Part shown: positions 1,425 through 41,676 of the stretch, piece by piece
Layout of the letters: every line of letters starts with the position of its first letter
Numbering within the stretch: position 1 is the stretch's first letter
Source of the DNA: Patescibacteria group bacterium
GTDB lineage: Bacteria; Patescibacteriota; Minisyncoccia; Moranbacterales; UBA2206
Length of the DNA: 64,000 bases
Reading direction: 5' to 3'
Assembly (NCBI GenBank): GCA_022711335.1
Contig: JAKLFF010000003.1
Coordinates: 13,508 to 77,507 of the forward strand
Notes under the pieces: model-generated
What the model was told of the DNA's origin: nothing
Database searches by the model: none
The model's input: only the letters and a program-made list of their open reading frames with translations
Translations under genes and position numbers: made by a program

Positions 1425-4400
1425 ATGAAATTCACACATCTTCACGTCCACAGTCACTACAGCCTTTTAGATGGTCTTGCCAAGATCGATGATCTTTTGA
1501 ACCGCGCCAAGGAACTGGGAATGGAGTCTCTCGCCATTACTGATCACGGGGTTCTTTACGGCGGAATTGAATTTTATATCAAAGCCAAAGAAAAAGGCAT
1601 TAAGCCGATCATCGGCTGCGAAATGTATGTTACTGCTGGAGATTATTTGAGCAAAAACAATACAACGGAAGACAAAACCCGCCATCACTTGATTCTGCTT
1701 TGTAAAAATGAAAAAGGTTACAAGAATTTAATGAAGCTTATTTCCATCGCACATTTGGAAGGATTCTATTACAAGCCAAGAATCAACAAAGAGCTTTTGC
1801 GTAAACATTCAGAAGGCCTGATTGGACTTTCTGCCTGTGCCGAAGGCGAAGTTCCCGCTGCTGCTATTTCCGGAGATCTCGAAAAAGCTGAAAAGCTAGC
1901 GCTGGAATATCAAAAAATTTTTGGCAAAGGCAATTTTTATCTCGAAATACAATATCATCCAAAATTCGAAAAACAAGCCATTGCCAACAAAGCTCTCGTT
2001 GAAATATCAAAAAAACATAATATTCCTCTCATTGCAACAAATGATATCCATTACGTCAAAAAGGAAGACGCGCCAATCCAGGATATTTTGCTTTGCATCC
2101 AGACCAACCGGAAAGTAACCGAAACAAACCGGATGAATCTCATGGATTTTGAACTCTATCTCAAGAGCCCGGAAGAAATGGCCGCTCATTTCAAAGATAT
2201 TCCCGAAGCGCTGGAAAATTCCCAAAAAATTGTCGACGCCTGCAATTTGGAAATAAGATTGGGCGAAACCCAGCTTCCCCATTTTGACGTTCCAAAGGGA
2301 TTTACCGCCAAATCCTATCTCCGAAAACTGGTTGAGGAAGGATTTGGAAAAAGATTTGGCAAAAATATAACAGAAGAACATAAAAACAGAATGGAATATG
2401 AGCTGGGAATCATCGAAAAAACCGGCTTTGCTTCCTACTTTTTGATCGTCCAGGACTTTGTCAACTGGGCCAAGGAACAAGGCATCGTTGTCGGCCCGGG
2501 CCGCGGATCAGCCGCTGGAAGTTTTGTTTCCTATCTTATCGGCATCACTAACATCGACCCGATAAAATACGACTTGCTTTTTGAACGTTTTTTAAATCCG
2601 GAGCGGATTTCTATGCCTGATGTCGACATGGATTTTGCCGATGACCGGCGCGATGAAGTTTTGGATTATGTCCGGGAAAAATATGGCAACGATCATGTGG
2701 CGCAGATCATTACCTTTGGAACTATGGCCGCGCGCGCCGCTATCCGCGATGCCGGCCGGGCGCTTGGGCTGCCCTACGACTTTTGCGACAAGACTGCTAA
2801 AATGATTCCTATGTTTTCCACTATTCCCAAAGCTATCGAAGAAGTAAAAGAATTTTCCGATTTTTATGGAAGCGGTCCGGATGCCAAAAAACTGATTGAC
2901 AGCGCGGCACGCCTTGAAGGCGTAGTCCGCCATGCGTCAATGCACGCCTGCGGAGTGGTCATTACAAAAGATCCAGTTGTTGAATATTCTCCTTTGCAAA
3001 AAATTATCGGAAAAGAATCCGGAGCGGTCACGCAATATTCATCTTCCACCAAATCCAGTTATATTGAAAAAATCGGCCTTCTTAAGATGGATTTTTTGGG
3101 GCTGAAAAATCTTACCATCATCCAAAATACTCTCCGCATTGTTCGAAAAATTCACCCTGTTGAATACGCCGCGAAGCGGCGTCCGCCAGAGGCGGAATTC
3201 AACAGGGTAAAAAATTCGGAAATTACCATAGATGATATCCCGCTAGACGACAAAAAAACTTTCGAGCTTTTGCAAAAAGCCAACACGACCGGAGTATTCC
3301 AGTTAGAAAGTTCCGGCATGAAAAGATATCTAAAACAGCTTGCGCCCAATGTTTTTGAAGATATTATTGCTATGGTCGCGCTTTATCGTCCGGGACCGAT
3401 GGATTGGATTCCGGATTTTATCGCCAGAAAGCATGGAGAAAGAGAAATTCGCTATCTCCACCCCGCCTTAAAACCTATTTTGGAAAAAACTTACGGCGTT
3501 GCGGTTTATCAGGAACAAATTATGCAAATCGCCCAGCAGCTGGCCGGATTCTCTTTGGGAGAAGCGGATGTGCTGCGAAAAGCGGTCGGAAAAAAAATCT
3601 TCGCGCTGGTTCAGGAACAAAAGCAAAAATTTATTGAAGGCTGCATCAGCCAAGGCGTAGCAAAGAATGTCGCCGAAAAAGTTTTTTCTTTTATTGAGCC
3701 TTTTGCCGGATACGGTTTTAACAGAAGCCATGCCGCGTGTTATGCGCTCATTGGATATCAAACCGCTTATCTCAAGGCTCATTTCCCTGCTCCATTTATG
3801 GCCGCGCTTCTCACATCCGATCAGGATAATATCGATCGAGTGGCCATTGAAGTCGCCGAGTGCATTGAAATGGGTATTGAGGTTCTTCCTCCTGATGTCA
3901 ATGAAAGTTTTGAGGAATTTGCCGTTATTATGGATAACGGCAAAGCCAGAATCCGCTTCGGCTTAAACGCCATCAAAAACGTCGGCCACACGATCGCCCA
4001 TGAAATTGTTGAAGAGCGAAAAAGAAATGGAAAATTCAAAAACATTACGGACTTCATTGAAAGAATCCAGCACAAAGATCTCAACAAAAAATCCATCGAA
4101 GCCCTGGCCAAAGTCGGAGCGCTCGAAGAAATGGGAGAAAGAAACCAAATCATAGCATCGATTGAAATTATTCTCGCTCACTCCAAAAATATCCAGAAAA
4201 TCAAAAATTCCAACCAGGAAAGCCTTTTCAGCGCTGAAGAAATTTCTCTTCCGGAAATCAAGATGGCTTCTTCAGAACCGGCTGAAAAAAAACAGCGCCT
4301 CGCTTGGGAAAAAGAGCTTCTCGGCCTTTATATCAGCGACCATCCGGTCAAAGAATACATCGAGTATCTCAATAAAATGGCTATCCGGATCAGAGATATA

Positions 4401-7825: not shown

Positions 7826-7900
7826 CTGATCCTCCTTATTTTCAGATCAATGGTTAATGTGTCAACATATACAAATTAAGTTAACATAACAAATAAATTT

Positions 7901-9643
7901 ATGTCAAAAAAATCTACCCCTAACAATTTAGAAATTCTCCGCCATAGCGCATCCCATGTTCTGGCGGCCGCCGTTTTAGAAATGTTTCCCGAAGCGCGCT
8001 TTGGCATCGGACCGGCCATTGAAAACGGGTTTTATTATGATTTTGATCTTCCTCGGACGCTCATTCCGGAAGATTTGCCTCTCCTTGAAGAAAAAATGAA
8101 AGCCATTATTAAAGCCAATCATCCGTTCGAAAGAGCGGAAATTTCCGCAAAAGAAGCATTAGATGATTTTAAAAAACTTGGGCAAGATTATAAAGTTGAG
8201 CTTATTAAAGATCTAGAAAATGAAGGAGAAAAAAAAGTCTCTGTCTATAAAACCGGGGTTTTTGTCGATCTTTGCACCGGACCACATCTGGATTCAACTG
8301 GAGAAATTCCAGCAGATGCGATGAAGCTCACCAAAATTTCCGGCGCCTATTGGAAAGGCGACGAAAAAAACAAAATGTTGCAAAGAATTTATGGCGTGGC
8401 CTTTGAGAATCAAAAAGAACTGGAAAATTATTTAAAAATGCTAGAAGAAGCTGAAAAGAGAAATCACGTTAAGCTGGGAAAACAGTTAAAGCTTTTTTCT
8501 ATCCATCCCGAGGGCCCCGGTTTCCCCTTTTTTCATCCCAAAGGAATGATAATCTGGAATGAATTGATTAAATATTGGCAAGAGGAACACGAAAAAGAAG
8601 GATACCAAGAAATCAACACTCCGATTATTCTTAAAAAAGAACTTTGGGAAAAAAGCGGGCACTGGGACCATTACAAAGACAGTATGTATTTTACAAAAAT
8701 AGATGCTATCGATTATGCCGTAAAGCCCATGAATTGCCCGGGCGGAATACTTATCTACAAATCCGACCTGCATAGTTACAAAGAGCTTCCCTTAAAGCTC
8801 GCTGAAATCGGCCTTGTTCACCGGCATGAACTTTCCGGAACGCTTAACGGCCTTTTCAGAGTCAGGATGTTCCGCCAAGATGACGCTCACATTTATTGCA
8901 CGGAAAGTCAGATAGGAGAAGAAGTCATGAAACTAATAAAGCTTATCGACCGGATATATAAAACTTTCGGCCTTTCCTATCATATAGAGCTTTCGACACG
9001 GCCTCTAAAATCAACTGGTACCGACAAAATGTGGAAAACAGCTGAAAAAGCGCTGGGCGACGCACTTGATAAGATGAAGATTGATTACAAGCTCAACCCG
9101 GGAGACGGGGCTTTCTATGGACCAAAGATTGATTTCCATATCAAAGACGCGATTGGAAGAACGTGGCAATGCGGAACAATCCAGCTTGATTTTTCGATGC
9201 CAGAGCGCTTTAAGCTTTCTTATATTGGAGAAGACGGTAAAGAACATCGGCCGGTAATGCTTCATCGAGTTATTTATGGAGCGGTAGAAAGATTTATGGG
9301 TATTCTCATCGAACACTACGCCGGGGCCTTTCCCGTCTGGCTTTCGCCTGTTCAAGTAATGCTTATTCCGGTCAGCGAAAAATTCAAAAAATACGCCCAT
9401 TCCGTAGAGACGCAATTTATTGCGTCTAATATTCGCATTAAAGTTGACGATTCTGACGAGACTCTTGGCAAGCACATCGCCGAAGCCGAAAAGCAAAAAA
9501 TTCCATATATGGTTGTGGTGGGAGAGAAAGAAGAAAAAGATAATTTGGTTGCAATCAGAACTCGCGGAGAGAAAAAACAAGAAACGATGAAAATTGATGA
9601 ATTTATTGAAAAGATCAGAAAGGAAATTGACGAAAAGAAATAG
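7901..9643 (+). CDS. thrS: threonyl-tRNA synthetase (no N-terminal TGS domain)
   Basis: 580 aa with N2/editing, class II catalytic core and anticodon-binding domains. Confidence 0.95.
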   Translation: MSKKSTPNNLEILRHSASHVLAAAVLEMFPEARFGIGPAIENGFYYDFDLPRTLIPEDLPLLEEKMKAIIKANHPFERAEISAKEALDDFKKLGQDYKVELIKDLENEGEKKVSVYKTGVFVDLCTGPHLDSTGEIPADAMKLTKISGAYWKGDEKNKMLQRIYGVAFENQKELENYLKMLEEAEKRNHVKLGKQLKLFSIHPEGPGFPFFHPKGMIIWNELIKYWQEEHEKEGYQEINTPIILKKELWEKSGHWDHYKDSMYFTKIDAIDYAVKPMNCPGGILIYKSDLHSYKELPLKLAEIGLVHRHELSGTLNGLFRVRMFRQDDAHIYCTESQIGEEVMKLIKLIDRIYKTFGLSYHIELSTRPLKSTGTDKMWKTAEKALGDALDKMKIDYKLNPGDGAFYGPKIDFHIKDAIGRTWQCGTIQLDFSMPERFKLSYIGEDGKEHRPVMLHRVIYGAVERFMGILIEHYAGAFPVWLSPVQVMLIPVSEKFKKYAHSVETQFIASNIRIKVDDSDETLGKHIAEAEKQKIPYMVVVGEKEEKDNLVAIRTRGEKKQETMKIDEFIEKIRKEIDEKK

Positions 9644-9655
9644 TGATATAGAATA

Positions 9656-9682
9656 GAAGGGCGGCAAAACCGCCCTTTTTGT
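9656..9682 (+). terminator. thrS intrinsic terminator (GGGCGG-caaaa-CCGCCC plus T5)
   Basis: Perfect 6-bp GC stem followed by a T-run. Confidence 0.7.
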
Positions 9683-9689
9683 TAATTTT

Positions 9690-9731
9690 ATGCAATACTA
9701 CATAAAAACTTTCGGGTGTCAAACTCCGTAA
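9690..9731 (+). other. 13-codon uORF MQYYIKTFGCQTP, a synonymously recoded duplicate of the miaB N-terminus
   Basis: 10 of 11 residues match MKYYIKTFGCQ with ~10 nt differences, nearly all at third codon positions. Confidence 0.4.
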
Positions 9732-9764
9732 AGTCGTTTCGCGACCATGGGACAAGTGAACTAT

Positions 9765-10964
9765 ATGAAGTATTATATCAAGACATTTGGATGTCAGATG
9801 AATTTTAGCGACAGCGAACGAATCGCTGGGTTTTTAGGATTGCACAAATTTAAGCCAGTCAAAGATATAAACCTGGCTAATTTAGTAATATTTAACACTT
9901 GCGGCGTGCGGCAGACAGCCGAAGATCGGGTTTATGGGCAAATACATAACATTAGGAAGCAAGAAGAAAGAAGTAAGAATAAAGCAAAAAGGGTAATAGT
10001 TTTAACTGGATGTTTGGCAAATCGAAAAGATGTGAAAAGAAGATTAAAAAATAAAGTTGATTTATTCTTTCCAATTAATGATTTTAATAAATTCGAACAT
10101 TTTATCATTAAAAATTGTTTAAAAATTAAAAATTTAAAATTAAAAATTCCGGCAAGGCAAAGTAAATGCAAAAATCTAAGTTATTTATCAATTAAACCCA
10201 AATATCTAAATCCTAAGGAAACCTACGTGCCGGTTATGACCGGCTGCAACAATTTCTGCTCCTATTGCGTCGTTCCCTATGCTCGAGGACGGGAAATCTC
10301 AAGACCGATGGAAGATATTGTGAAAGAAATCAATGCTTTGAATAAAAAAGGGTGCGGAGAAATAACTTTATTGGGACAGAATGTAAATAGTTATAAATAT
10401 AAAAATACGCCTCGCCTGTCATCCCCGCGAAAGCGGGGATCCAGTGAGAAAATTAAATCAAACGACTGGATTCCCGTTTACACGGGAATGACAAATATTA
10501 CTTTTCCCTATCTTCTTGACTTTTTTGCTCATTCTTATCCTCAAATAAATTTTAAGTTCTTAACTTCTCACCCGAAAGACTTTTCTGATGAATTAATCAA
10601 TACTATCGCCAAAAACAAAAACATTTCCCGAGAAATTCATCTCCCGGTTCAATCCGGCAGCGATAAGATTTTAAAAGCTATGAACCGGCCATACACGCAA
10701 AAAAAATATCTGGCGCTAATTGGAAAGATTAGGAAGAAAATTCCGAACGCGACTTTTACCACTGACGCAATTGTCGGTTTTCCAGGCGAAACAGAAAAAG
10801 ATTTTCAAGAGACCGCTAAAATTTTCAAGAAAATAAAATGCAGCGAAGCCTATATAAACAAATATTCTCCCCGTCCGGGAACAACCGCCTGGAAACTGGG
10901 AAATCCTATTTCTTGGGAAGAAAAAAAGAGAAGAGAAAAAGTTTTAAGAGCATTAGTTAAATAG
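9765..10964 (+). CDS. miaB: tRNA-i6A37 methylthiotransferase (radical SAM MTTase), with two in-frame Family D hairpin repeats
   Basis: N-terminal YIKTFGCQMN and radical SAM CNNFCSYC motifs. Lies directly upstream of miaA. Confidence 0.85.
   Translation: MKYYIKTFGCQMNFSDSERIAGFLGLHKFKPVKDINLANLVIFNTCGVRQTAEDRVYGQIHNIRKQEERSKNKAKRVIVLTGCLANRKDVKRRLKNKVDLFFPINDFNKFEHFIIKNCLKIKNLKLKIPARQSKCKNLSYLSIKPKYLNPKETYVPVMTGCNNFCSYCVVPYARGREISRPMEDIVKEINALNKKGCGEITLLGQNVNSYKYKNTPRLSSPRKRGSSEKIKSNDWIPVYTGMTNITFPYLLDFFAHSYPQINFKFLTSHPKDFSDELINTIAKNKNISREIHLPVQSGSDKILKAMNRPYTQKKYLALIGKIRKKIPNATFTTDAIVGFPGETEKDFQETAKIFKKIKCSEAYINKYSPRPGTTAWKLGNPISWEEKKRREKVLRALVK
10417..10445. repeat. Family D 29-nt hairpin repeat (TGTCATCCCCGCgaaaGCGGGGATCCAGT), in-frame in miaB
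   Basis: Exact reverse complement of the intergenic copy at 11026-11054. Confidence 0.75.
10465..10493. repeat. Family D hairpin repeat variant (ACTGGATTCCCGtttacaCGGGAATGACA), in-frame in miaB
   Basis: Same flanks (ACTGGAT..ATGACA) and same hairpin geometry. Confidence 0.65.
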
Positions 10965-11025
10965 CCTTATCACTCCCGCGCCTGTCTACCAGCGAGGCAG
11001 AAAAGCGAGAATCTCAAGTCAAATA

Positions 11026-11054
11026 ACTGGATCCCCGCTTTCGCGGGGATGACA
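11026..11054. repeat. Family D hairpin repeat (ACTGGATCCCCGCtttcGCGGGGATGACA) in the miaB-miaA spacer, 8 nt from the miaA ATG
   Basis: Perfect 8-bp stem. Confidence 0.75.
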
Positions 11055-11062
11055 ACAATAAT

Positions 11063-12085
11063 ATGCGAAGTAAAAATCCTAGAATTATCGTCATTCTCGG
11101 CCCTACTTCATCCGGAAAATCGGAAATAGCCATTCGGCTTGCCAAAAAATTCGACGGAGAAATCATTTCGGCTGATTCCCGGCAAATTTATCGCGGAATG
11201 GACGTAGGCACCGGCAAAGTGCCAAAATCAAAAATCAAAAATCAAAAATCAAAATTACAATTTAAAAATAAAAAGTTCAATCCATATTGGAGCAACGGCG
11301 TTGCTCATTATCTAATCGATATTGTAAGTCCCAAAACAAATTATAATGCGGCTAAATTTAAAAAAGATGCTTATGGAGCTCTTAAATTTATAATTAATCG
11401 TGGAAAAATTCCGATTATCTGCGGCGGAACCGGGTTCTGGATAAAATCCATCGTAGATAATGTAGCTTATCCGGAAGTAAAGCCGGATTGGAAATTACGC
11501 AATAAATTGCGAAATAATTCAGCGGAAAAATTATTTAAGATGCTTGAAAAATTAGATCCAAAGAGAGTTACGAATATCGATAAAAATAATAAAGTCCGCT
11601 TGATTCGCGCAATTGAAATATGCAAAAAACTCAAACATGTTCCCTCTCTCCCCCCGGGAGAGATGTCGCGAAGCGACAGAGAGGGAGAAAACCATAATTT
11701 TCTCCAAATAGGCATTAAACTTCCCAAAGAAAAACTTCATAAAAATATAAAAAAGCGCCTAAAAAAAAGATTCGAGGCGGGAATGATTAAGGAAATTAAG
11801 GATTTAAAAAAACAAGGATTGTCCTGGAAGAAAATCCAGAGCTTCGGCCTGGGATATTTCTGGATTCCGCTATATCTTCACCCTATTAAATACGCCGTGA
11901 AACGGCGTCCGCCAAAGGCGGAATTCAACATGGTAAAAAACAAGAAAGAATTATTTGATAAAATATACCAAGCAGAAAAAGATTATGCCAAACGACAGAT
12001 GACCTGGTTTGGAAAAGACAAGCGAATAAAATGGATCGAAAAATACAAGGATATTGAGAAAGAAGCTATGTCTTTTCTAAAATAA
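11063..12085 (+). CDS. miaA: tRNA dimethylallyltransferase, carrying in-frame repeat insertions
   Basis: P-loop GPTSSGKS and MiaA motifs. 340 aa. Confidence 0.9.
   Translation: MRSKNPRIIVILGPTSSGKSEIAIRLAKKFDGEIISADSRQIYRGMDVGTGKVPKSKIKNQKSKLQFKNKKFNPYWSNGVAHYLIDIVSPKTNYNAAKFKKDAYGALKFIINRGKIPIICGGTGFWIKSIVDNVAYPEVKPDWKLRNKLRNNSAEKLFKMLEKLDPKRVTNIDKNNKVRLIRAIEICKKLKHVPSLPPGEMSRSDREGENHNFLQIGIKLPKEKLHKNIKKRLKKRFEAGMIKEIKDLKKQGLSWKKIQSFGLGYFWIPLYLHPIKYAVKRRPPKAEFNMVKNKKELFDKIYQAEKDYAKRQMTWFGKDKRIKWIEKYKDIEKEAMSFLK
11637..11692. repeat. Family E structured repeat in-frame in miaA (CTCTCCCCccggGAGAG, TGTCGCgaaGCGACA, GAGAGGGAGAA)
   Basis: Same architecture and tail as the dnaE copy. Confidence 0.7.
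11878..11940. repeat. Family F structured repeat in-frame in miaA
   Basis: Near-identical to dnaE 3152-3212, with compensatory loop changes in the hairpins. Confidence 0.75.
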
Positions 12086-15253: not shown

Positions 15254-16720
15254 TTATTTTAGCTTGTTCTTTAGCATTTCCTGCGCTTTTTTAGGATTAG
15301 CTTTGCCTTTCGTTTTGGCCATAACCTGTCCAACCAAAAACTTCAGCGCGTTTTTTTTGCCGGCTTTATAATCAGCAACTGATTTTTCATTATTCGCGAT
15401 TACCTCTCCAACTATTTTTTCCAACTCGCCTTCATCGTCCATTTGAGCCAGATTTTTAGATTCGATTATCTGGGACGGATCTCCTCCGGTTTTGTACATT
15501 TCAGCAAGGACGGTCTGCGCCGCACTGGAATTTATTTTTCCACTGCCAACAAGACATATGAGTTCCGCATAATTTTCCGGCGTGATTTTCAAATCAGCCG
15601 CTGAATGGCTATGCTCGATCAAGTGTTTTCTGATTTCCACTATCATATAATTAGCCGCTAGTTTCATGGCCTTGTTTTCATCTAATTCAAACTCGCCACA
15701 ACTTATTTTTTCCTTAAGTTCGCCAATCACTTCTTCGAAATAAGCCGCCAAGTGCTTGTCAGAAACTAGAATCGCTACGTCATCTACTGGCAAATTATAT
15801 TCCTTTTGAAATCTTTCTGCTTTTCGATCCGGAAGTTCCGGCAATTTGCGTTTTAGCTCTTCGACATATTCTTTTGTAAACTTGAACGGCGGAATGTCCG
15901 GCTCCGGGAAATAGCGATAGTCATGAGCCGATTCCTTCACTCTTTGCGAAACAGTAGTTCCATGATTTGAATCATATCCTCTCGTTTCCTGAACCACTTT
16001 CTTTCCGGCTTCCAAAAGCTCTGTCTGCCGTTCAATTTCATAAGCAATCGCTTTTTCTACAAATTTGAAAGAATTGATGTTTTTCACTTCCACTTTCGTC
16101 CCGGATAATTTATCTTCGCCCTTTTTATAGAGTGACAGATTAACCTCACATCTCATCATTCCTTTTTCCATATCCGCATCGGAGATTTCCAGATACCGGC
16201 AAATTTGCTGAAGCTTCTGGCAAAACAATCTGGCTTCTTCAGCTGATTCAATATCCGGTTCAGTCACCAGCTCCATAAGCGGCACTCCAGCCCGATTGAA
16301 ATCCACGAGCGTATAATCCACGCCTTTGGGATGAATGAGTTTCCCGGTGTCCTCCTCCAGATGGATTCTTGTGATTCCCACCTCTTTTCCGTTTATTTTC
16401 AGTTTCCCGTTTTTGCAAAAAGGCTGATCATATTGGGAAATTTGATAGCCTTTGGGAAGATCGGGATAAAAATAATTTTTCCGGTCAAATTTGCTCTCGA
16501 GCGCAATTTCACAGTTCATGGCCAGTCCAGCCAGCTGGACAAATTCAATCGCTTGCCTGTTGGGCACTGGCAAAGTTCCAGGCTGGCCCGTACAAACCGG
16601 GCAAATATTGACGTTCGGCTCCCGTTCCAGCCCCAGCCCATTTTTCGAATCACAAAACATCTTAGAGGCTGTTTTTAGCTCTACATGCACCTCCATGCCA
16701 ATGACTGGGATATACTTCAT
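15254..16720 (-). CDS. gatB: Asp/Glu-tRNA amidotransferase subunit B
   Basis: 488 aa with GatB motifs throughout. Confidence 0.95.
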   Translation of the reverse strand: MKYIPVIGMEVHVELKTASKMFCDSKNGLGLEREPNVNICPVCTGQPGTLPVPNRQAIEFVQLAGLAMNCEIALESKFDRKNYFYPDLPKGYQISQYDQPFCKNGKLKINGKEVGITRIHLEEDTGKLIHPKGVDYTLVDFNRAGVPLMELVTEPDIESAEEARLFCQKLQQICRYLEISDADMEKGMMRCEVNLSLYKKGEDKLSGTKVEVKNINSFKFVEKAIAYEIERQTELLEAGKKVVQETRGYDSNHGTTVSQRVKESAHDYRYFPEPDIPPFKFTKEYVEELKRKLPELPDRKAERFQKEYNLPVDDVAILVSDKHLAAYFEEVIGELKEKISCGEFELDENKAMKLAANYMIVEIRKHLIEHSHSAADLKITPENYAELICLVGSGKINSSAAQTVLAEMYKTGGDPSQIIESKNLAQMDDEGELEKIVGEVIANNEKSVADYKAGKKNALKFLVGQVMAKTKGKANPKKAQEMLKNKLK

Positions 16721-16724
16721 AAAA

Positions 16725-16830
16725 ATAAAAAATCAAAAATTAAAATGAGAAATGACAATGTAAAATACAAAATTATTAATTATTTTAAATTTTTATCTGT
16801 CATTTTTATTTTTGATATTTACATTTTTCA
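16725..16830. repeat. Family G AT-rich palindromic element, abutting the gatB ATG
   Basis: Near-identical to 1318-1424. Confidence 0.6.
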
Positions 16831-17160
16831 TTATCTCCTGTCTCCGCTTCCGCCCAATTTTCCTCTTTCCATCCGGCTATACAGCTTTTCTATATTATGC
16901 TCCGCGATATCATCAAGCGTCAAACTCAACTCTGAAGCAATCTGGGAAACATACCAAAGAACATCTCCCAGTTCTTTTTTTATCATCTCTCTGGTCTCTT
17001 CGTCAATTATTCCGTTTTTATCGCGGATAACCTTTTTTATCTTCTCTGCCACCTCGCCCGACTCCCCGGCTAGCCCCAAAGTCGGATAGATATAATTATT
17101 CCCGGCATTCGGATATTTGGCCGTTATTCTTGATTTTTTCTGATACTCCTTAAAGTTCAT
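16831..17160 (-). CDS. MazG-like nucleotide pyrophosphohydrolase
   Basis: 109 aa, EExGE motif. Confidence 0.65.
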   Translation of the reverse strand: MNFKEYQKKSRITAKYPNAGNNYIYPTLGLAGESGEVAEKIKKVIRDKNGIIDEETREMIKKELGDVLWYVSQIASELSLTLDDIAEHNIEKLYSRMERGKLGGSGDRR

Positions 17161-20565: not shown

Positions 20566-21126
20566 TTATTTCATTATCTTTTCCATCATTTCATCCACCT
20601 GCCTTATCAATTCTTCCTGCGCTCCGCCGTTATCCAGCTTGAAATCAGCCTGTTTTCCAATTTCGTGAATGGAAATTTCAGTGAGCTTTCCTTCCTCCTC
20701 AAGAAATTGCTCCAAAGTAGTTTTATCCTCTCCGTCGTTCTGCTTTCTGAATCTGGTTCGATTATAGCGCACTTTTATGTCCGCTGTTACGTACACCAAA
20801 TAGAATTTGTTTCCATACTTTTTCCGAAAAGGCTCCACATCGCCGTGCATCCTTATACCGTCCGCTATGATTACATCTGACCCGTTCTTTTCCATGTCCT
20901 GTATCAGAGAGTCGATAATCACTGAAGGACCGTATCCCTCTTTAAGAACTAGAGCCAATTTAATCAAATTGTCCCGGGTAATTGGCAATCTCAAATCTTC
21001 AAGCGTTCTTCTTAAAATCTTGGAGGTTCCATAATGAACGGCGCCGTATTTTTCTTTGAGATGGTCAGAAACCGTGCCTTTCCCGGCACCTTTTTCGCCT
21101 ATTAAACCTATAACTATTTTTGCCAT
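20566..21126 (-). CDS. P-loop nucleotide kinase-like paralog
   Basis: GLIGEKGAGKGT Walker A. Track N-terminus (to 21165) is translated Family C repeat. True start MAKIV abuts the repeat. Confidence 0.45.
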   Translation of the reverse strand: MAKIVIGLIGEKGAGKGTVSDHLKEKYGAVHYGTSKILRRTLEDLRLPITRDNLIKLALVLKEGYGPSVIIDSLIQDMEKNGSDVIIADGIRMHGDVEPFRKKYGNKFYLVYVTADIKVRYNRTRFRKQNDGEDKTTLEQFLEEEGKLTEISIHEIGKQADFKLDNGGAQEELIRQVDEMMEKIMK

Positions 21127-21276
21127 TTTTGTCCGCGAGGCACGAGCGGCTACAAAAATAAGCATCCCGCACCAATTCTATAATCAAAATTTAATATTTC
21201 TTAAAAACTGAGCCGCAGGCGATTCCGTGGCAGAAGCTATGCGTTAAGCATTATTTCATTCGGAATTTGGTGCGGG
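21127..21276 (-). repeat. Family C ~150-nt element (5' module TTTTGTC.GCGAG..ACAAAAATRAG; 13-14-bp terminal inverted repeats CCCGCACCAATTC ... GAATTGGTGCGGG)
   Basis: Three copies, each filling a co-directional intergenic gap and ending at a start codon. Confidence 0.7.
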
Positions 21277-22103: not shown

Positions 22104-22526
22104 TTATTCTACTTTTATTCCCATCGATTTCGCCGTTCCTTCGATTATCTTGGCCGCGCCTTCGACATCATTGGCATTGAGATCTTCCATTTTTCGCCCG
22201 GCAATTTCCCGAATTTTTTCTTTGCTGACTTTTCCCACTTTTGTTTTCAGAGGATCTCCAGATCCTTTTTGAACACCGGCCGCTTTTCGAAGTAAATCAG
22301 AAGCTGGAGGAGTTTTCAGAACAAAGGTAAAAGTCCGGTCTTCAAAAACCGTTATTTCCGCCGGGATTATATCTCCGCCCTTGTCCTTGGTCGCTTCATT
22401 AAATTTCGTGCAGAATTCCTGAATATTAAGCCCGTGCTGGCCCAAAGCCGGACCGACTGGAGGCGCCGGATTGGCTTTCCCGGCCGGGATTTGAAGTTTG
22501 ATAATAGTCTTGATTTTCTTGGCCAT
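22104..22526 (-). CDS. rplK: ribosomal protein L11
   Basis: [16 protein letters not shown] motif. Confidence 0.95.
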
Positions 22527-22674
22527 GATTATAGAATATTGAATTTAGTATTTTGAATTTTGAATGGAAATAATGAATATAGAATCGCGATTTCTCTCTT
22601 TTTAATCGACTATATTCAAAATTCTATATTCCTATTCTAAATTCGCAATTCACAATTCTAAATTCAGTAATAAA
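22527..22674. repeat. Family B palindromic AT-rich element (GAATTT/AAATTC units)
   Basis: A 55-nt segment is near-identical to 26945-26998. Confidence 0.55.
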
Positions 22675-28342: not shown

Positions 28343-28346
28343 GCCA

Positions 28347-28498
28347 TTTTTGTCTACGAGCGAAGCGAGTAGCCACAAAAATGAGCACCCCGCACCAATT
28401 CGAAGATGAATTTTAGGTTAATTATATTTTAAGCCGAAGGTGACGACGCACACAATACTCTGCGTTAAGCCTAAACCCAGCCGGAATTGGTGCCGGGG
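28347..28498 (-). repeat. Family C element
   Basis: See copy at 21127-21276. Confidence 0.7.
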
Positions 28499-36085: not shown

Positions 36086-36952
36086 TCAGGCTTTTCCATC
36101 GCTGCCGAAGAATTTTATTTTCTTCTTAACTGCTTCTTTGACTGCTTCGCGCGCCCCGCCCAGAAGTTTTCGGACATCGAAAGAAACGTTGCCCTGATTG
36201 CGGACTGAATTGATCAAGTCATTGATAAAAGCTATCCTGGTGGCTGTATCAACATTAAAACATGTGACGCCACGCTTGATTGCTTCTCCCACTTTTCCAT
36301 TCTCCCAATCCGATGCGCCGTGCAAAATTAAAGGCAGATTGGGACAGCTTTTATTAATCATTTCCAGTCTTTCAAAATCCGGTTTTTCCCTTTCTTTGAA
36401 AAAATCATGCGCATTTCCAATAGCCACCGCTAAAGCATCAATTCCTGTTTCTTTTGCGAAAGAAGCGGCTTGCCCAGGATCGGTCATGTATTTTTCCCAC
36501 TTCACTTCGCCCATTTCGTACTCGCCCAGATATGGAACGCTCCCGAGTTCCGCTTGCACTTCTACTCCTTTTTCATGGCAAAAAGCAACCACTTTTTTGG
36601 TTATCTCGAGGTTATCCACGTATTTTTTTCTCGATCCGTCATACATCACAGAAGCAAAGCCGATTGCCACCGCGCGTTGAATAAACTCAAAACTGTGCCC
36701 GTGATCAAGATGGATTCCGATCGGAAGTTCCGGCGCATAAAATTCCGCGTCATTCTTCACCAGATGATAAATCAGCCGTCCGCCGGCATATTCCATGGTT
36801 TTTTCCGTAATTTGAATGATTACCGGCGAACGCATCTCTTGGGCAGCTTCAACGATTGCCCTTGTCATTTCCAAATTAACGGTGTTAAAAGCTCCGACGG
36901 CATAACCGCCTTCCCGGGCTTTGGTTAGAATTTCTTTAACTGATGTTATCAT
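36086..36952 (-). CDS. fba: class II fructose-bisphosphate aldolase
   Basis: FbaA motifs. Confidence 0.9.
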   Translation of the reverse strand: MITSVKEILTKAREGGYAVGAFNTVNLEMTRAIVEAAQEMRSPVIIQITEKTMEYAGGRLIYHLVKNDAEFYAPELPIGIHLDHGHSFEFIQRAVAIGFASVMYDGSRKKYVDNLEITKKVVAFCHEKGVEVQAELGSVPYLGEYEMGEVKWEKYMTDPGQAASFAKETGIDALAVAIGNAHDFFKEREKPDFERLEMINKSCPNLPLILHGASDWENGKVGEAIKRGVTCFNVDTATRIAFINDLINSVRNQGNVSFDVRKLLGGAREAVKEAVKKKIKFFGSDGKA

Positions 36953-37056
36953 AAAAATAGAATTTTGAATTTGGAATTTGGAATTTTGAATAAGAATTAA
37001 GAATAATGAACCTGGATCATAATATTCTAAATTCTATATTATTCCCATTCTAAATT
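36953..37056. repeat. Family B palindromic element
   Basis: Similar arms to B1 and B2. Confidence 0.5.
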
Positions 37057-38618: not shown

Positions 38619-39620
38619 TCTTAGATATTCCGCCGCATCTTCCGGCCGAATTGTTGAAATCTCAATCCCGGTTGACATTTCCAGTCCCGCCCAGGTGGAT
38701 GTATGCGGGATTATTTCAATATGCCAATGATAATGCGGATAGTCCCGCCCATCGCAGGGCGAAGTATGGACATAAAAATTGTAAGCGGGATCTTTGAGGC
38801 CCTTAAAAATTTTAAAAATAGCTTTCTGCAGAGCCTCACCTGCTTTCACTTTGCTCTCAACCGGCGTCCTTTCGAAATAAGGCTTGTGTTTTTTGGGAAT
38901 AACCCAGGTTTCGAAAGCCATCCTTGAAGCAAACGGACAAAAAACCAGAAATTCATCATTTTCGAAAACAATTCTTTTTCGCTGCTCTGTCTCCCAGTCT
39001 ATCATCGTGCAATAAACACATTTTCTATTTGTTCTATAATAATTTTCCGCGCCGGTAAGCTCCAGGTTTATATAGGGAGATATGACCGGAATAGCTACCA
39101 GCTGCGAATGAGGATGAGAAATTGATGCGCCAGCTTCCACGCCGTGATTATGAAAAATTTCGATAAAATTAACGCTTTTTTTGTTCATAAGGCTGATGTA
39201 GCGGTCCTGATAAGCGTCGAAAATTTCCGCCACCTGATATCCGTCCAGCTCGGCAATCTGCTTTTTATGATCGCGAGTAACAACAATCTCATGGTAGCCG
39301 ACTCCGTCCATCATAAAATAAGGACCCTCTTCAATGTGCTTCACGCGGGCGCCTCTGGAGAAAGCCGGATATTTATTGGGAATAACCCGGAGCGTCCACT
39401 CTCCCTCGGAATTTTGGTACATAAGAACATCTTTTTCCTGCCCGGTTTTTTCCGGACAGCAAAAGAAACACAGCTTGTCCGGATTCTCTTTCATTTCCTG
39501 CCTACCATGTTCGGAAAATTCTTTCGGCCTCTTAGACCTTCCGGTCGCAATTACTACCCAGTCTCCAGTCACCAAATCTTGTCGAAGTTCTGAAATTTTA
39601 TTTTTATTTGTCTCTTCCAT
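38610..39620 (-). CDS. galactose-1-phosphate uridylyltransferase-like (HIT family, HPHSQ)
   Basis: Two half-site HIT motifs. Track ORF to 39680 is translated Family C repeat. True start MEET abuts the repeat. Confidence 0.6.
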   Translation of the reverse strand: MEETNKNKISELRQDLVTGDWVVIATGRSKRPKEFSEHGRQEMKENPDKLCFFCCPEKTGQEKDVLMYQNSEGEWTLRVIPNKYPAFSRGARVKHIEEGPYFMMDGVGYHEIVVTRDHKKQIAELDGYQVAEIFDAYQDRYISLMNKKSVNFIEIFHNHGVEAGASISHPHSQLVAIPVISPYINLELTGAENYYRTNRKCVYCTMIDWETEQRKRIVFENDEFLVFCPFASRMAFETWVIPKKHKPYFERTPVESKVKAGEALQKAIFKIFKGLKDPAYNFYVHTSPCDGRDYPHYHWHIEIIPHTSTWAGLEMSTGIEISTIRPEDAAEYLRSI

Positions 39621-39771
39621 TTTTGTCTGCGAGCGAAGCGAGCAGGTACAAAAATGAGAACCCCGCACCAATTCACTCAAAAGACTTTTTTTATTTTTAA
39701 ATTTAAGCCGTTAGGCGACCACACGCATAAAACTATGCCTGAGTAAAATTAAATTTGGAATTGGTGCGGGG
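39621..39771 (-). repeat. Family C element
   Basis: See copy at 21127-21276. Confidence 0.7.
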
Positions 39772-41582: not shown

Positions 41583-41632
41583 AAGCCCCTGTTCCAATTT
41601 TCATCGGAACCGCTCAGGGGCTTTTTATTTTT
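41583..41632 (+). terminator. intrinsic terminator of the small-peptide operon
   Basis: AAGCCCCTG..CAGGGGCTTTTTATTTTT. Confidence 0.55.
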
Positions 41633-41676
41633 GAATTTTGATTTGTCATTTTGACTTTTGATTTTTGAATTTTGAA

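What the first reader, a model, noticed from the sequence alone, without database searches (positions are those of the whole stretch)
10417..11054. Family D: 29-nt perfect hairpin (ATCCCCGC-NNNN-GCGGGGAT) twice in-frame inside miaB and once 8 nt before the miaA start
10417-10445 is the exact reverse complement of 11026-11054 over 29 nt. 10465-10493 is a variant with the same ACTGGAT..ATGACA flanks. Two copies sit 19 nt apart in opposite orientation inside the MiaB coding sequence (..LSSPRKRGSSEKIKSNDWIPVYTGMTN..) without breaking the frame. The third lies in the miaB-miaA spacer. Opposite-orientation copies 580 bp apart could mediate inversion or deletion. If transcribed, the in-gene hairpins are strong mRNA structures.
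Basis: seen in the sequence. Interest (0 to 1): 0.65.

Follow-up and report, generated by a model that had tools for sequence, protein, structure and literature searches.

The report
Known CGTC/NTS hairpin repeats inside miaB
The hairpins are copies of an already described, very widespread bacterial repeat (CGTC-1 REP, also called dRS3 or NTS, the target of Ssn single-strand DNA nucleases); here an inverted pair sits in frame inside a tRNA-modification gene of a CPR bacterium and adds about 30 residues to a loop, much as the palindromic elements of Rickettsia do.

Summary
In detail: three 28-29-nt hairpin units lie exactly where stated, against 0-0.09 expected by chance. They are not a new family. 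Each unit matches the published Ssn-related motif (SRM) and has the anatomy of CGTC-1 REPs (dRS3/NTS of Neisseria, RPE-6 of Rickettsia): a TGTC tag, an 8-bp stem, a 4-nt loop and a CCA tail. Units 10417-10445 and 10465-10493 form a head-to-head dimer with the tags outside, which is the usual form of this family.

The dimer lies in frame in the MiaB linker between GQNVNSY and FPxLL. That linker is 6 residues long in 35 of 120 orthologues and 36 residues here. AlphaFold gives it low confidence between well-predicted flanks. The third unit is the intact half of a decayed dimer in the miaB-miaA spacer.

Three things are new only in degree. The host is a CPR bacterium. This MiaB loop holds many different repeat-derived inserts across orthologues. 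A relative that is identical over two long tracts carries a different insert inside a 320-bp divergent patch.

No ssn gene is in the window, so the mobilisation mechanism is inferred. Three assemblies give no sign of inversion. I class it as a new member of a known kind, of modest interest.

The parts
10417..10445 (+). Left unit of the intragenic dimer. The forward SRM/NTS-like hairpin TGTCATCCCCGCGAAAGCGGGGATCCAG(T) is on the + strand and is translated as (L)SSPRKRGSS.
   Evidence: It matches the SRM regex of PMC11893778 exactly. DNA fold is an 8-bp stem with a 4-nt loop, -9.8 kcal/mol, z -5.1.
10446..10464 (.). 19-nt spacer of the dimer (GAGAAAATTAAATCAAACG), translated as EKIKSN(D).
   Evidence: Spacers of this family vary from 4 to 87 nt between genomes. 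The last 9-10 nt (ATCAAACGA) are shared with the orthologous copy in L138.
10465..10493 (-). Right unit of the intragenic dimer. The forward SRM TGTCATTCCCGTGTAAACGGGAATCCAG is on the - strand, and the + strand is translated as (D)WIPVYTGMT.
   Evidence: It differs from the left unit at two stem pairs, both compensatory (pair 3 C-G to T-A, pair 8 C-G to T-A).
10417..10493 (.). The whole 77-nt head-to-head (tags outside) REP dimer.
   Evidence: DNA folds as a three-way junction at -19.9 kcal/mol, z -5.9, on either strand. RNA folds as a long hairpin at -40.7 kcal/mol, z -6.6. Among the genome loci, 53 dimers were head-to-head, 5 tail-to-tail and 4 head-to-tail.
10395..10502 (+). MiaB linker codons 217-252, between GQNVNSY and FPYLL. 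It is 36 residues here against 6 in the shortest orthologues, so the net insertion is about 30 residues.
   Evidence: Orthologue alignment. B. uniformis MiaB 7MJZ has 5 residues between the aligned blocks. AlphaFold pLDDT is 65/56/66 for residues 221-250 against 95-96 in the flanks.
9747..10964 (+). miaB-type radical-SAM methylthiotransferase, the host gene (405 aa, no TRAM domain).
11026..11054 (-). Third unit, in the miaB-miaA spacer. The forward SRM is on the - strand, and it is identical to the left intragenic unit. It ends 8 nt before the miaA ATG.
   Evidence: The 98-nt spacer containing it is identical in L121. The unit itself is present in L137 with a C>A change at 11027.
10968..11025 (+). 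Probable decayed left half and spacer of a second dimer: TATCACTCCCGCG, then 24 nt, then GCGAGAATCTCAAG, then TCAAATA. The boundaries are uncertain.
   Evidence: This is inferred by eye, by comparison with the intact spacer dimer at the same place in L122 (TTGTCATTCCCGCGTAGGCGGGAATCTAG ... CTGGATCCCCGCCTTCGCGGGGATGACA). The folds pair TCCCGCG with CGCGGGG.
10253..10575 (.). Patch centred on the dimer where the window is only about 50-75% identical to L121. The two are 100% identical over about 8446-10245 (99% in 8346-8445) and about 10946-11745.
   Evidence: In L121 the same site holds a 48-nt AT-rich insert instead.
11063..12085 (+). miaA, the downstream gene. It carries other in-frame repeat inserts.

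Best explanation
SHOWN. The three hairpins are units of the CGTC-tagged REP superfamily, family CGTC-1. This is the same repeat as dRS3/NTS of Neisseria, RPE-6 of Rickettsia, and the 'Ssn-related motif' (SRM). Units 10417-10445 and 10465-10493 form a head-to-head dimer that was inserted, or imported by recombination, into the linker after the GQNVNSY strand of a CPR MiaB. It is carried in frame, and the codons add about 30 residues to what the model predicts as an unstructured loop. The unit at 11026-11054 is the intact half of an older, partly decayed dimer in the miaB-miaA spacer.

INFERRED. The dimer is selfish or near-neutral DNA. It looks like a miniature of the roughly 350-bp unit NTS(+)-ssn-NTS(-), whose small GIY-YIG nuclease (Ssn) binds the hairpin in single-stranded DNA and cuts just 5' of it. 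In a dimer each strand carries one forward unit at its 5' side, so both outer junctions would be cleavable. Spread between genomes is by such units, by phages, and by homologous recombination of alleles that already carry the repeat. Only in-frame, stop-free copies in permissive loops survive inside essential, densely packed CPR genes. The hairpin itself, not the peptide, is what is conserved.
For: Family identity:
- All three units match the SRM search sequence HGTCWYN(0-2)YYVSBRHN(0-5)WNVSBRGN(0-2)RNCYNB exactly, and nothing else in the 64 kb does (0.09 expected).
- The TGTC tag, 8-bp stem beginning A-T/T-A, 4-nt loop and CCA tail fit the CGTC-1 description in PMC3733652. That paper equates CGTC-1 with dRS3 and RPE-6. 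It says these repeats are mostly head-to-head dimers with 20-100 bp spacers, and that intragenic dimers encode 20-30 residues.
- The NTS consensus and the Ssn biochemistry come from PMC11893778.
They span many phyla, including about 16 CPR loci and one Nanoarchaeota locus.
- Dimer counts were 53 head-to-head, 5 tail-to-tail and 4 head-to-tail.
- Stem positions left free by the search pattern covary: pair 7-22 was T-A 115, G-C 14, C-G 11, A-T 3, unpaired 3; pair 12-17 was C-G 130, T-A 14, unpaired 2.

Link to ssn:
- NTS(+)-ssn-NTS(-) units of 348-362 bp with the same polarity as the dimer occur in L014, L040, L067 and L072.
- L327, a Dependentiae contig, has such a unit with exactly this window's variant TGTCATCCCCGCGAAAGCGGGGATCCAG.

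Insertion rather than native sequence:
- 35 of 120 orthologues have a 6-residue linker, and solved MiaB 7MJZ has 5 residues there.
- pLDDT is 56-66 in the insert against 95-96 in the flanks.

Generality: units or dimers lie in frame in a DNA methylase (Nanoarchaeota) and, in CPR loci, in PrmC, Tgt and a Wzy_C protein.

Decay and ancestry: L138 keeps only the right unit, with the same spacer end ATCAAACGA.
Against: - No GIY-YIG/Ssn-like ORF lies in the 64-kb window or in the 21-kb relative L123, and the rest of the genome is unseen.
- Two CPR small GIY-YIG genes that I examined are not flanked by SRMs. The one GIY-YIG gene found in a CPR NTS locus (L071) is 1.9 kb from the nearest unit and only 36% identical to an NTS-flanked Ssn.
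- The units have 3-4 mismatches to the Neisseria NTS consensus, so cleavage by any particular Ssn cannot be assumed.
- No target-site duplication or clean empty site in an isogenic background was found. The only strain-level contrast (L121) is a divergent patch, which fits allele replacement rather than transposition.
- That Ssn mobilises these repeats is a hypothesis even in the source paper.
- Translation of the insert is inferred from the intact frame, not observed.
Confidence: 0.85

Rival explanations
1. The hairpins are functional RNA elements of the miaB-miaA transcript. The intragenic long hairpin would be an RNase III/processing or translation-pausing site. The spacer hairpin, 8 nt before the miaA ATG, would control miaA translation or transcript stability.
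For: The RNA fold of 10405-10505 is -40.7 kcal/mol, z -6.6. The spacer unit lies next to the miaA start, and the spacer is 100% conserved between the window and L121. There are sub-threshold Rfam similarities to two repeat-derived sRNAs: WsnRNA46 at 31.6 bits (gathering score 65.3) and FtrB at 31.0 bits (gathering score 66). PMC3733652 and PMC10969869 report that many REPs and MITEs are transcribed and affect mRNA fate.
Against: The same 28-nt unit occurs in hundreds of unrelated contexts, phyla and orientations, including viral contigs. That argues against a miaB-specific role. The insert is absent or different in most MiaB orthologues, and in a relative that is 100% identical outside the patch. 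There is no T-run after either hairpin on the coding strand; the only terminator-like call is on the antisense strand. Any regulatory effect would be a by-product.
Confidence: 0.15
2. The perfect 29-nt inverted copies at 10417 and 11026 act as a recombination switch that inverts or deletes the 580-bp 3' half of miaB.
For: The two copies are 29/29 identical in inverted orientation. Correia elements, a different Neisseria repeat family, are reported to undergo inversion (PMC10969869).
Against: The window, L137 (a different sample) and L121 all have the same orientation. In L137 a SNP at 11027 already shortens the identity to 28 nt. L121 keeps the spacer unit but has no intragenic partner. Inversion would truncate MiaB after residue about 233, removing conserved radical-SAM barrel elements. 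By general knowledge, 29 bp is at the lower limit for RecA-dependent exchange.
Confidence: 0.03
3. The dimer marks, or helps to set, the boundaries of homologous recombination tracts. Alleles of the MiaB loop are swapped between CPR lineages by transformation, and NTS-type hairpins (cut in incoming single strands by an Ssn-like enzyme, or simply acting as heterology) delimit the exchanged segments.
For: The window and L121 are 100% identical over about 8446-10245 and about 10946-11745. They are only about 50-75% identical over 10253-10575, centred on the insert. They diverge again near the polymorphic D17 repeat at 11877 and upstream of 8345. In Neisseria, SsnA cutting at NTS lowers integration of transforming DNA, and dRS3 is enriched near genes that vary between isolates (PMC11893778).
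Against: This rests on a single pair of short metagenomic contigs. No donor allele was found: the patch is 0.77-0.81 identical to many orthologues once the repeat residues are excluded. Any indel heterology would interrupt recombination tracts without a nuclease. No ssn gene was seen in this lineage.
Confidence: 0.2
4. The segment is native MiaB sequence, or an assembly artefact, that only resembles a repeat.
For: The reading frame is intact and the gene is otherwise conserved.
Against: The linker is 6 residues long in 35 of 120 orthologues and hypervariable in the rest. The same DNA unit is found in more than 350 fetched loci from three collections. The identical protein, and the locus with the same arrangement, were assembled independently from another sample (L137).
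Confidence: 0.01

Closest known systems
CGTC-1 REPs (Di Nocera, De Gregorio and Rocco 2013, PMC3733652). These are the same repeat as dRS3 of Neisseria and as NTS / Ssn-related motifs (Chenal et al. 2025, PMC11893778).
   Same: It shares the unpaired (C/T)GTC tag, the 8-bp stem starting A-T/T-A, the 4-nt loop and the CCA(G) tail. It matches the SRM search sequence exactly and forms a head-to-head dimer with a short variable spacer. It occurs in many phyla, and units of this kind flank small GIY-YIG ssn genes in the same polarity.
   Different: The host is a CPR/Patescibacteria bacterium, a group not covered by either paper (5 phyla in 2013, RefSeq representative genomes in 2025). There are 3-4 mismatches to the Neisseria NTS consensus. 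Only 3 units lie in 64 kb, far from the hundreds of copies in Neisseria or Rickettsia. No ssn gene is in view.
Rickettsia palindromic elements (RPE; Ogata et al. 2000/2002, as summarised in PMC10969869 and PMC3733652), especially RPE-6, which equals CGTC-1
   Same: It is a palindromic repeat inserted in frame into a housekeeping gene that remains intact. It encodes 20-30 extra residues in a loop compatible with the fold, and the host is a small-genome, host-dependent bacterium. Identical units occur as dimers in a Rickettsia endosymbiont (L052).
   Different: The host phylum is different. The classic RPE-1 is about 150 bp with a conserved peptide. Here the spacer is 19 nt, and what is conserved is the hairpin, through compensatory changes, rather than the peptide.
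REPIN / RAYT systems (GTAG-tagged REP doublets mobilised by IS200/IS605-like tyrosine transposases)
   Same: It has the same architecture, two inverted hairpin units that can fold into one long hairpin. It is also non-autonomous, single-strand-recognised DNA with no target duplication.
   Different: The tag is TGTC, not GTAG. The associated enzyme in the literature is a GIY-YIG nuclease, not a HUH tyrosine transposase. REPINs are extragenic as a rule.
Neisseria intergenic mosaic elements (NIME: repeat segments bracketed by dRS3)
   Same: dRS3-type units bracket a short variable segment.
   Different: NIMEs are large intergenic clusters interleaved with other repeats. This is a single dimer inside a coding sequence.
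MITEs such as Correia/NEMIS or ERIC
   Same: It is small, palindromic and sometimes intragenic, it can be transcribed, and it forms RNA hairpins.
   Different: No 15-30-bp terminal inverted repeats of an IS type, no target-site duplication and no conserved internal sequence were seen here.

Membership tests
CGTC-1 REP / dRS3 / NTS-SRM | Match to the published SRM search sequence HGTCWYN(0-2)YYVSBRHN(0-5)WNVSBRGN(0-2)RNCYNB | tested here: met
   All three units match exactly. There are no other matches in the 64 kb, and 0.09 are expected by chance.
CGTC-1 REP / dRS3 / NTS-SRM | Unpaired CGTC (or TGTC/CCTC) tag at one end, 8-bp stem with A-T/T-A in the first two positions, 4-nt loop, and a short CCA-like tail | tested here: met
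   The unit reads TGTC-ATCCCCGC-GAAA-GCGGGGAT-CCAG, and the variant TGTC-ATTCCCGT-GTAA-ACGGGAAT-CCAG. The definition is from PMC3733652.
CGTC-1 REP / dRS3 / NTS-SRM | dRS3 core ATTCCC-N8-GGGAAT, and Neisseria NTS consensus CGTCATTCCCGCGMAVGCGGGAATCYRG within 1 mismatch | tested here: not met
   There are 3, 3 and 4 mismatches to the NTS consensus. Only the unit at 10465-10493 has the exact dRS3 core; the other two have ATCCCC...GGGGAT, a compensatory change. These are therefore SRM/CGTC-1 members but not canonical Neisseria NTS.
CGTC-1 REP / dRS3 / NTS-SRM | Predominantly head-to-head dimers (tags outside) with a variable spacer | tested here: met
   10417-10493 is head-to-head with a 19-nt spacer. 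Across 120 genome loci there were 53 head-to-head, 5 tail-to-tail and 4 head-to-tail dimers, with spacers of 4-87 nt.
CGTC-1 REP / dRS3 / NTS-SRM | Hairpin maintained by compensatory substitutions | tested here: met
   Free pair 7-22 formed a standard pair in 144 of 146 units, with four pair types plus one T-G. Free pair 12-17 was paired in 144 of 146 units. Within the window the units differ by compensatory pairs.
CGTC-1 REP / dRS3 / NTS-SRM | Multi-copy dispersal within the host genome | tested here: inconclusive
   There are three units at two sites in 64 kb, and the rest of the genome is not available. Related CPR loci hold 1-4 units per 8 kb.
CGTC-1 REP / dRS3 / NTS-SRM | An ssn gene (single-domain GIY-YIG, cd10448) in the same genome, often flanked by the repeat | not testable with these tools
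   A profile built from four Ssn-like ORFs (three of them SRM-flanked) found nothing in the window (best E 6.4). The association itself was reproduced elsewhere: L014, L040, L067, L072 and L327. The CPR GIY-YIG genes P0151 and P0232 are not SRM-flanked.
CGTC-1 REP / dRS3 / NTS-SRM | Binding and cleavage by Ssn as single-stranded DNA only | not testable with these tools
   This is a biochemical property, shown for four Ssn homologues (three Neisseria species and Wolbachia pipientis) in PMC11893778.
Rickettsia palindromic elements (in-frame protein-coding palindromes) | Inserted in frame in an otherwise intact conserved gene, and absent from orthologues | tested here: met
   The ORF is intact and all radical-SAM and UPF0004 matches are retained. 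35 of 120 orthologues have a 6-residue linker.
Rickettsia palindromic elements (in-frame protein-coding palindromes) | The insert lies in a loop compatible with the fold | tested here: met
   The model (mean pLDDT 86.4, pTM 0.86) shows residues 220-249 with almost no secondary structure and pLDDT 56-66, between strands 217-219 and 250-252. 7MJZ has 5 residues there. This rests on a model, not a solved structure.
Rickettsia palindromic elements (in-frame protein-coding palindromes) | Host genus Rickettsia and one of the named RPE consensus sequences | tested here: not met
   The host is CPR. PMC3733652 states that CGTC-1 equals RPE-6, but no R. conorii RPE-6 sequence was aligned here. Only a Rickettsia endosymbiont locus with identical units was seen (L052).
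REPIN / RAYT (GTAG REPs) | GTAG tag at the unit end | tested here: not met
   The tag is TGTC.
REPIN / RAYT (GTAG REPs) | RAYT (HUH-Y1 transposase) gene flanked by the repeat | not tested
   No profile scan of all window ORFs for Y1 transposases was run. PMC3733652 reports that CGTC repeats are not associated with such genes.
CRISPR repeat (type I-E-like 29-nt CCCCGC hairpin) | Direct repeats regularly spaced by spacers of about 32 nt | tested here: not met
   The copies are inverted, 19 nt and 580 nt apart, and there are only three.
Intrinsic terminator | GC-rich hairpin followed by a T-run on the transcribed strand | tested here: not met
   The only terminator-like call at these hairpins is on the antisense strand (11050 to 11031). 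There is none on the + strand.
IS-derived MITE | Target-site duplication and conserved internal sequence | tested here: not met
   The dimers listed (58 rows including the window and orthologue loci) showed no consistent direct repeat at their flanks, and their spacers were unrelated in sequence and length.

The most novel reading that the evidence does not exclude
In CPR/DPANN populations, CGTC/NTS-type hairpin dimers and the other repeat families of this window are carried in frame in permissive loops of core genes, and they coincide with the edges of recombination tracts. If an Ssn-like single-strand nuclease (or the heterology itself) cuts or blocks incoming DNA at these hairpins, the repeats would structure transformation-driven allele exchange. 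Loops such as the MiaB 217-252 linker would then become cassette-like hotspots of protein variation in organisms with almost no intergenic space.
Probability: 0.15. Interest if true: 0.65.

Novelty: new member of a known kind. Interest (0 to 1): 0.35.

Why it matters
The main value is correct filing. The hairpin is a member of a described repeat superfamily whose partner enzyme, Ssn, was characterised in 2025. It should not be counted as a new element, a CRISPR remnant or a regulatory riboswitch-like structure.

Three things go beyond that:
- The repeat family extends to CPR bacteria and to a Nanoarchaeota contig, groups that the two defining papers did not sample.
- In these gene-dense genomes the units are often found in frame inside real genes (MiaB, Tgt, PrmC, a DNA methylase). 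The Rickettsia 'coding palindrome' phenomenon is therefore not peculiar to Rickettsia.
- One MiaB loop holds many unrelated repeat-derived inserts across orthologues and differs between relatives that are otherwise identical over long tracts. That gives a concrete locus for studying how such repeats enter, decay and are exchanged. It also warns annotators that 20-40-residue low-complexity stretches in CPR proteins may be translated repeats.

Tried and rejected
- Rfam scan of 10300-11150 at E up to 10. It gave only sub-threshold hits (WsnRNA46 31.6 bits against gathering score 65.3, FtrB 31.0 bits against 66, plus plant miRNA hairpins). They were useful only as a pointer to repeat-derived sRNAs.
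- Literature search for the translated peptides (IPAFAGMT, SFPRKRES and others). It found nothing. Searching for the DNA words found the Ssn paper.
- CRISPR-like reading of the 29-nt CCCCGC hairpin. Rejected on orientation and spacing.
- Terminator reading. Rejected because there is no T-run on the coding strand.
- Target-site duplication. None was consistent among the dimers. A possible AAATA at the window copy is not shared by L122 or L123.
- Search for the donor of the divergent 10253-10575 patch. The first ranking favoured NTS-bearing orthologues, but that was an artefact of including the repeat-encoded GMT residues. After removing them no orthologue stood out.
- A neighbour-joining tree of 119 MiaB sequences with the insert masked. 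NTS-bearing sequences are scattered, but the tree is too crude to separate repeated gain from loss.
- Looking for an Ssn partner in CPR. There was no hit in the window. L071's GIY-YIG gene is not adjacent to a unit. The Moranbacteria-type GIY-YIG genes P0151 and P0232 have no SRM nearby and sit beside duplicated tRNA pieces. The low-GC contig L327, which has a perfect NTS-ssn-NTS unit, turned out to be Dependentiae, not CPR.
- Inversion check. It was possible only by comparing assemblies, because no reads were available.
Full report
OBSERVATION. ACTGGATCCCCGCTTTCGCGGGGATGACA lies at 11026-11054, and its perfect reverse complement lies at 10417-10445. The variant ACTGGATTCCCGTTTACACGGGAATGACA lies at 10465-10493. 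Dinucleotide shuffles of the window gave no matches to either pattern. Each unit is an 8-bp stem with a 4-nt loop (DNA -7.7 to -9.8 kcal/mol, z -4.4 to -5.1).

The ORF 9747-10964 reads through the two intragenic units as ...LSSPRKRGSSEKIKSNDWIPVYTGMTN.... It is a MiaB-type methylthiotransferase (UPF0004 + Radical_SAM; TIGR00089 4.9e-104, covering profile positions 1-359 of 429, so it has no TRAM domain). The ORF 11063-12085 is MiaA. The third unit ends 8 nt before the miaA ATG. The closest proteins come from Moranbacteria, Parcubacteria and Patescibacteria metagenome bins, so the organism is a CPR bacterium.

WHAT THE UNIT IS. A scan of one genome per species (185,579 species) with CTGGATNCCCGNNNNNNCGGGNATGACA stopped at its 120-locus limit. 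The hits covered Proteobacteria, Planctomycetes, Nitrospirota, Bacteroidetes, Chloroflexi, Cloacimonadota, a Rickettsia endosymbiont, about 16 CPR bins and a Nanoarchaeota bin. Scans of viral contigs and of metagenome contigs also hit their limits.

A full-text search for the DNA words led to Chenal et al. 2025 (PMC11893778). That paper defines the 28-nt Neisseria Transformation Sequence CGTCATTCCCGCGMAVGCGGGAATCYRG, which contains the dRS3 repeat. It also defines a degenerate 'Ssn-related motif' (SRM). It shows that small single-domain GIY-YIG proteins (Ssn, cd10448), whose genes are typically flanked by these repeats, bind the hairpin and cut next to it in single-stranded DNA only.

All three window units match the SRM search sequence exactly, and nothing else in the 64 kb does. 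Simulated windows give 0.09 matches. The units differ from the Neisseria NTS consensus at 3-4 positions, two of which form a compensatory stem pair.

An earlier survey, Di Nocera et al. 2013 (PMC3733652), describes the same objects as CGTC-tagged REPs. Family CGTC-1 has a CGTC tag that is often TGTC, an 8-bp stem starting with A-T pairs, a 4-nt loop and a CCA tail, and it occurs mostly as head-to-head dimers with variable spacers. The survey equates CGTC-1 with dRS3 in Neisseria and with RPE-6 in Rickettsia conorii. It reports that intragenic copies are often dimers encoding 20-30 residues. The window units fit every one of these descriptors.

THE DIMER. Units 10417-10445 and 10465-10493 have their TGTC tags outside and are 19 nt apart, so they form a head-to-head dimer of 77 nt. 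In the 120 genome loci I counted 53 head-to-head, 5 tail-to-tail and 4 head-to-tail pairs within 150 nt. Spacers ran from 4 to 87 nt and were unrelated in sequence.

As single-stranded DNA the dimer folds into a three-way junction on either strand (-19.9 and -19.6 kcal/mol, z -5.9 and -5.5). As RNA it folds into one long hairpin (-40.7 kcal/mol, z -6.6).

Positions that the search pattern left free covary strongly. The third stem pair was T-A 115, G-C 14, C-G 11, A-T 3 and mispaired 3. The eighth pair was C-G 130, T-A 14 and mispaired 2. The window's own units differ from each other at exactly these pairs, and both differences are compensatory. The hairpin is therefore what is maintained, while the encoded peptides drift (SSPRKRGSS / SLPRRRESS / SFPRRRESS; WIPVYTGMT / WIPAFAGMT).

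RELATION TO ssn. Among the fetched loci, a profile built from four Ssn-like ORFs found six such ORFs in the 120 genome loci, six in the 120 viral loci and four in the 119 metagenome loci. All three of these ORFs that I tested match Pfam GIY-YIG. In L014, L040, L067, L072 and L327 the gene is bracketed by a forward unit on the left and a reverse unit on the right, 348-422 bp in all. This is the same polarity as the dimer, which therefore looks like a miniature of that unit.

L327 carries exactly this window's variant, TGTCATCCCCGCGAAAGCGGGGATCCAG. Its NurA neighbour places it in Dependentiae (TM6), not CPR.

The window has no such gene (best E 6.4). The two Moranbacteria-type small GIY-YIG genes that I examined have no SRM nearby. 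Whether this organism has a partner nuclease is therefore unknown. That Ssn mobilises the repeats is a hypothesis even in the source paper.

IT IS AN INSERTION IN A LOOP. In an alignment of 120 orthologues, the stretch between the invariant GQNVNSY and FPxLL is 6 residues in 35 proteins, 7 in one, and 10-62 in the other 84. The window has 36. The solved Bacteroides uniformis MiaB (7MJZ) aligns as two blocks, query 7-219 and 250-396, with 5 residues of its own between them.

An AlphaFold model built from 75 orthologues (mean pLDDT 86.4, pTM 0.86) gives pLDDT 65, 56 and 66 for residues 221-250, with almost no secondary structure (only a 3-residue helical turn at 243-245). This stretch lies between short strands at 217-219 and 250-252, and the flanks score 95-96. 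The radical-SAM and UPF0004 matches are complete, so the gene looks functional.

It does not refute. The three similar orthologues that I checked at the DNA level carry the units at the same site. L122 (P0010) has a 19-nt spacer between the 29-nt units, L123 (P0028) has a 37-nt spacer, and L138 (P0022) has the right unit only. L138 shares the spacer end ATCAAACGA with the window, which indicates common descent of that copy and decay of its left half.

A HOTSPOT AND A MOSAIC. Other orthologues fill the same loop with unrelated repeat-derived peptides. These include AT-rich heptad types (LKIKNLKLIENCKLKI), GEMSRTRDREGN, KNSSADEA, LPAGRQA and RRGVSTG. In a crude neighbour-joining tree, the six sequences with the NTS-type insert are scattered.

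The most telling comparison is with L121 (P0002). It is 100% identical to the window in every 100-nt bin over about 8446-10245 (99% in 8346-8445) and about 10946-11745, and 90-99% identical over 10546-10945. It is only about 50-75% identical over 10253-10575. There it carries a 48-nt AT-rich insert in place of the dimer, yet the 98-nt miaB-miaA spacer with the third unit is identical. The two sequences diverge again upstream of 8345, and also from about 11830, next to another polymorphic in-frame repeat at 11877-11940.

This is the signature of homologous exchange of alleles, not of simple insertion or excision in an isogenic background. I could not identify a donor. The pattern recalls the reported enrichment of dRS3 near genes that vary between isolates, and the effect of SsnA on transforming DNA in Neisseria. 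It rests on one contig pair, however, and any heterology would interrupt recombination tracts.

THE SPACER COPY. The unit at 11026-11054 is preceded by TATCACTCCCGCG, then 24 nt, then GCGAGAATCTCAAG. L122 has an intact dimer at the same place, overlapping the end of its miaB. By comparison, the window sequence looks like a left unit with an expanded loop. I mark this as inferred. There is no terminator-like site on the coding strand. In L137, a second assembly of the same population from another sample, 11027 is A. That turns CTGGAT into ATGGAT and creates an in-frame ATG 36 nt upstream of the miaA start.

INVERSION OR DELETION. The window, L137 and L121 all have the 10446-11025 segment in the same orientation. 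An inversion would remove conserved barrel elements of MiaB. I found nothing in favour of a switch, but reads were not available.

GENERALITY. In the CPR and DPANN loci fetched, 14 of 43 units lie inside stop-free frames of at least 200 codons. Four such frames were checked and are real genes: an N6/N4 DNA methylase in a Nanoarchaeota contig (dimer), PrmC (one unit inside the N-terminal domain), Tgt (dimer, which splits the Pfam match), and a Wzy_C protein. Coding copies of this repeat are therefore not a peculiarity of miaB or of Rickettsia.

VERDICT. The finding is real and well observed, but the element belongs to a known and recently characterised repeat family, and its in-frame coding state has a direct precedent (RPE-6 and other intragenic CGTC dimers). 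The new points are the host group, the hotspot behaviour of the MiaB loop, and the strain-level mosaic. I class it as a new member of a known kind, with modest interest.

Noticed in passing
window 10100-10148, 11215-11275, and families D1-D16 (for example 1311-1426, 16719-16834, 22524-22669, 36950-37017, 41621-41680): AT-rich repeats with a 7-nt period are scattered through the window, and some lie in frame in genes: miaB IKNCLKIKNLKLKI (AlphaFold pLDDT 48-65) and miaA KSKIKNQKSKLQFKNKK. The same kind of repeat fills the MiaB hotspot loop in many orthologues and in the near-identical relative L121.
   Followed up: partly
window 3151-3214 and 11877-11940: A 64-nt GC-rich double-hairpin repeat (ACGCCGYGAARCGGCGT + CCGCCARAGGCGG) has two copies that are 91% identical. 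The second copy is in frame in miaA (HPIKYAVKRRPPKAEFNMV). It is absent from L121, again with diverged flanks.
   Followed up: partly
window 11651-11686: A palindromic in-frame insert in miaA, CCCCCGGGAGAGATGTCGCGAAGCGACAGAGAGGGA, encodes PPGEMSRSDREGE. The same peptide type (GEMSRTRDREGN) occupies the MiaB hotspot loop of P0029, P0046 and P0104.
   Followed up: no
window 21121-21178, 28344-28401, 39617-39674: A 58-nt repeat, CCATTTTTGTCTRCGAGCGAAGCGAGYAG..ACAAAAATGAG.ACCCCGCACCAATTC, occurs in three copies that are 69-91% identical (family D12).
   Followed up: no
window 9747-10964; proteins P0008, P0060, P0077: The MiaB of this CPR clade lacks the C-terminal TRAM domain; among the 120 listed only P0104 and P0109 have PF01938. 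Three orthologues are MiaB-MiaA fusion proteins of 653-703 residues.
   Followed up: no
L137 position equivalent to window 11027: A C>A SNP in another sample changes CTGGAT to ATGGAT inside the spacer unit. This creates an in-frame ATG, and the gene caller extends MiaA by 12 residues (MDPRFRGDDNNN).
   Followed up: yes
L126 1380-1860 and L131 1420-1830: Small GIY-YIG genes of Moranbacteria-type CPR (P0151, P0232) sit between a truncated or disrupted tRNA-like copy and a complete copy of the same tRNA. This suggests insertion into or next to tRNA genes. No SRM lies nearby.
   Followed up: partly
Six of the 120 loci also carry an Ssn-like ORF next to a unit, five of them with strong scores, for example L155, L188, L189 and L197. 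Phages or prophages are therefore a possible vehicle between phyla.
   Followed up: partly
L327 1383-1804: A Dependentiae (TM6) contig of 36% GC holds a complete NTS(+)-ssn-NTS(-) unit whose repeats are the exact variant found in this window.
   Followed up: yes
window 7894-8345 compared with L121: The 5' part of thrS and everything upstream differ between the window and L121 (about 76-85% identity). L121 also has an extra in-frame AT-rich heptad insert in thrS near window 8232. This marks the left edge of the shared near-identical block, which is 99% identical in 8346-8445 and 100% from 8446.
   Followed up: partly
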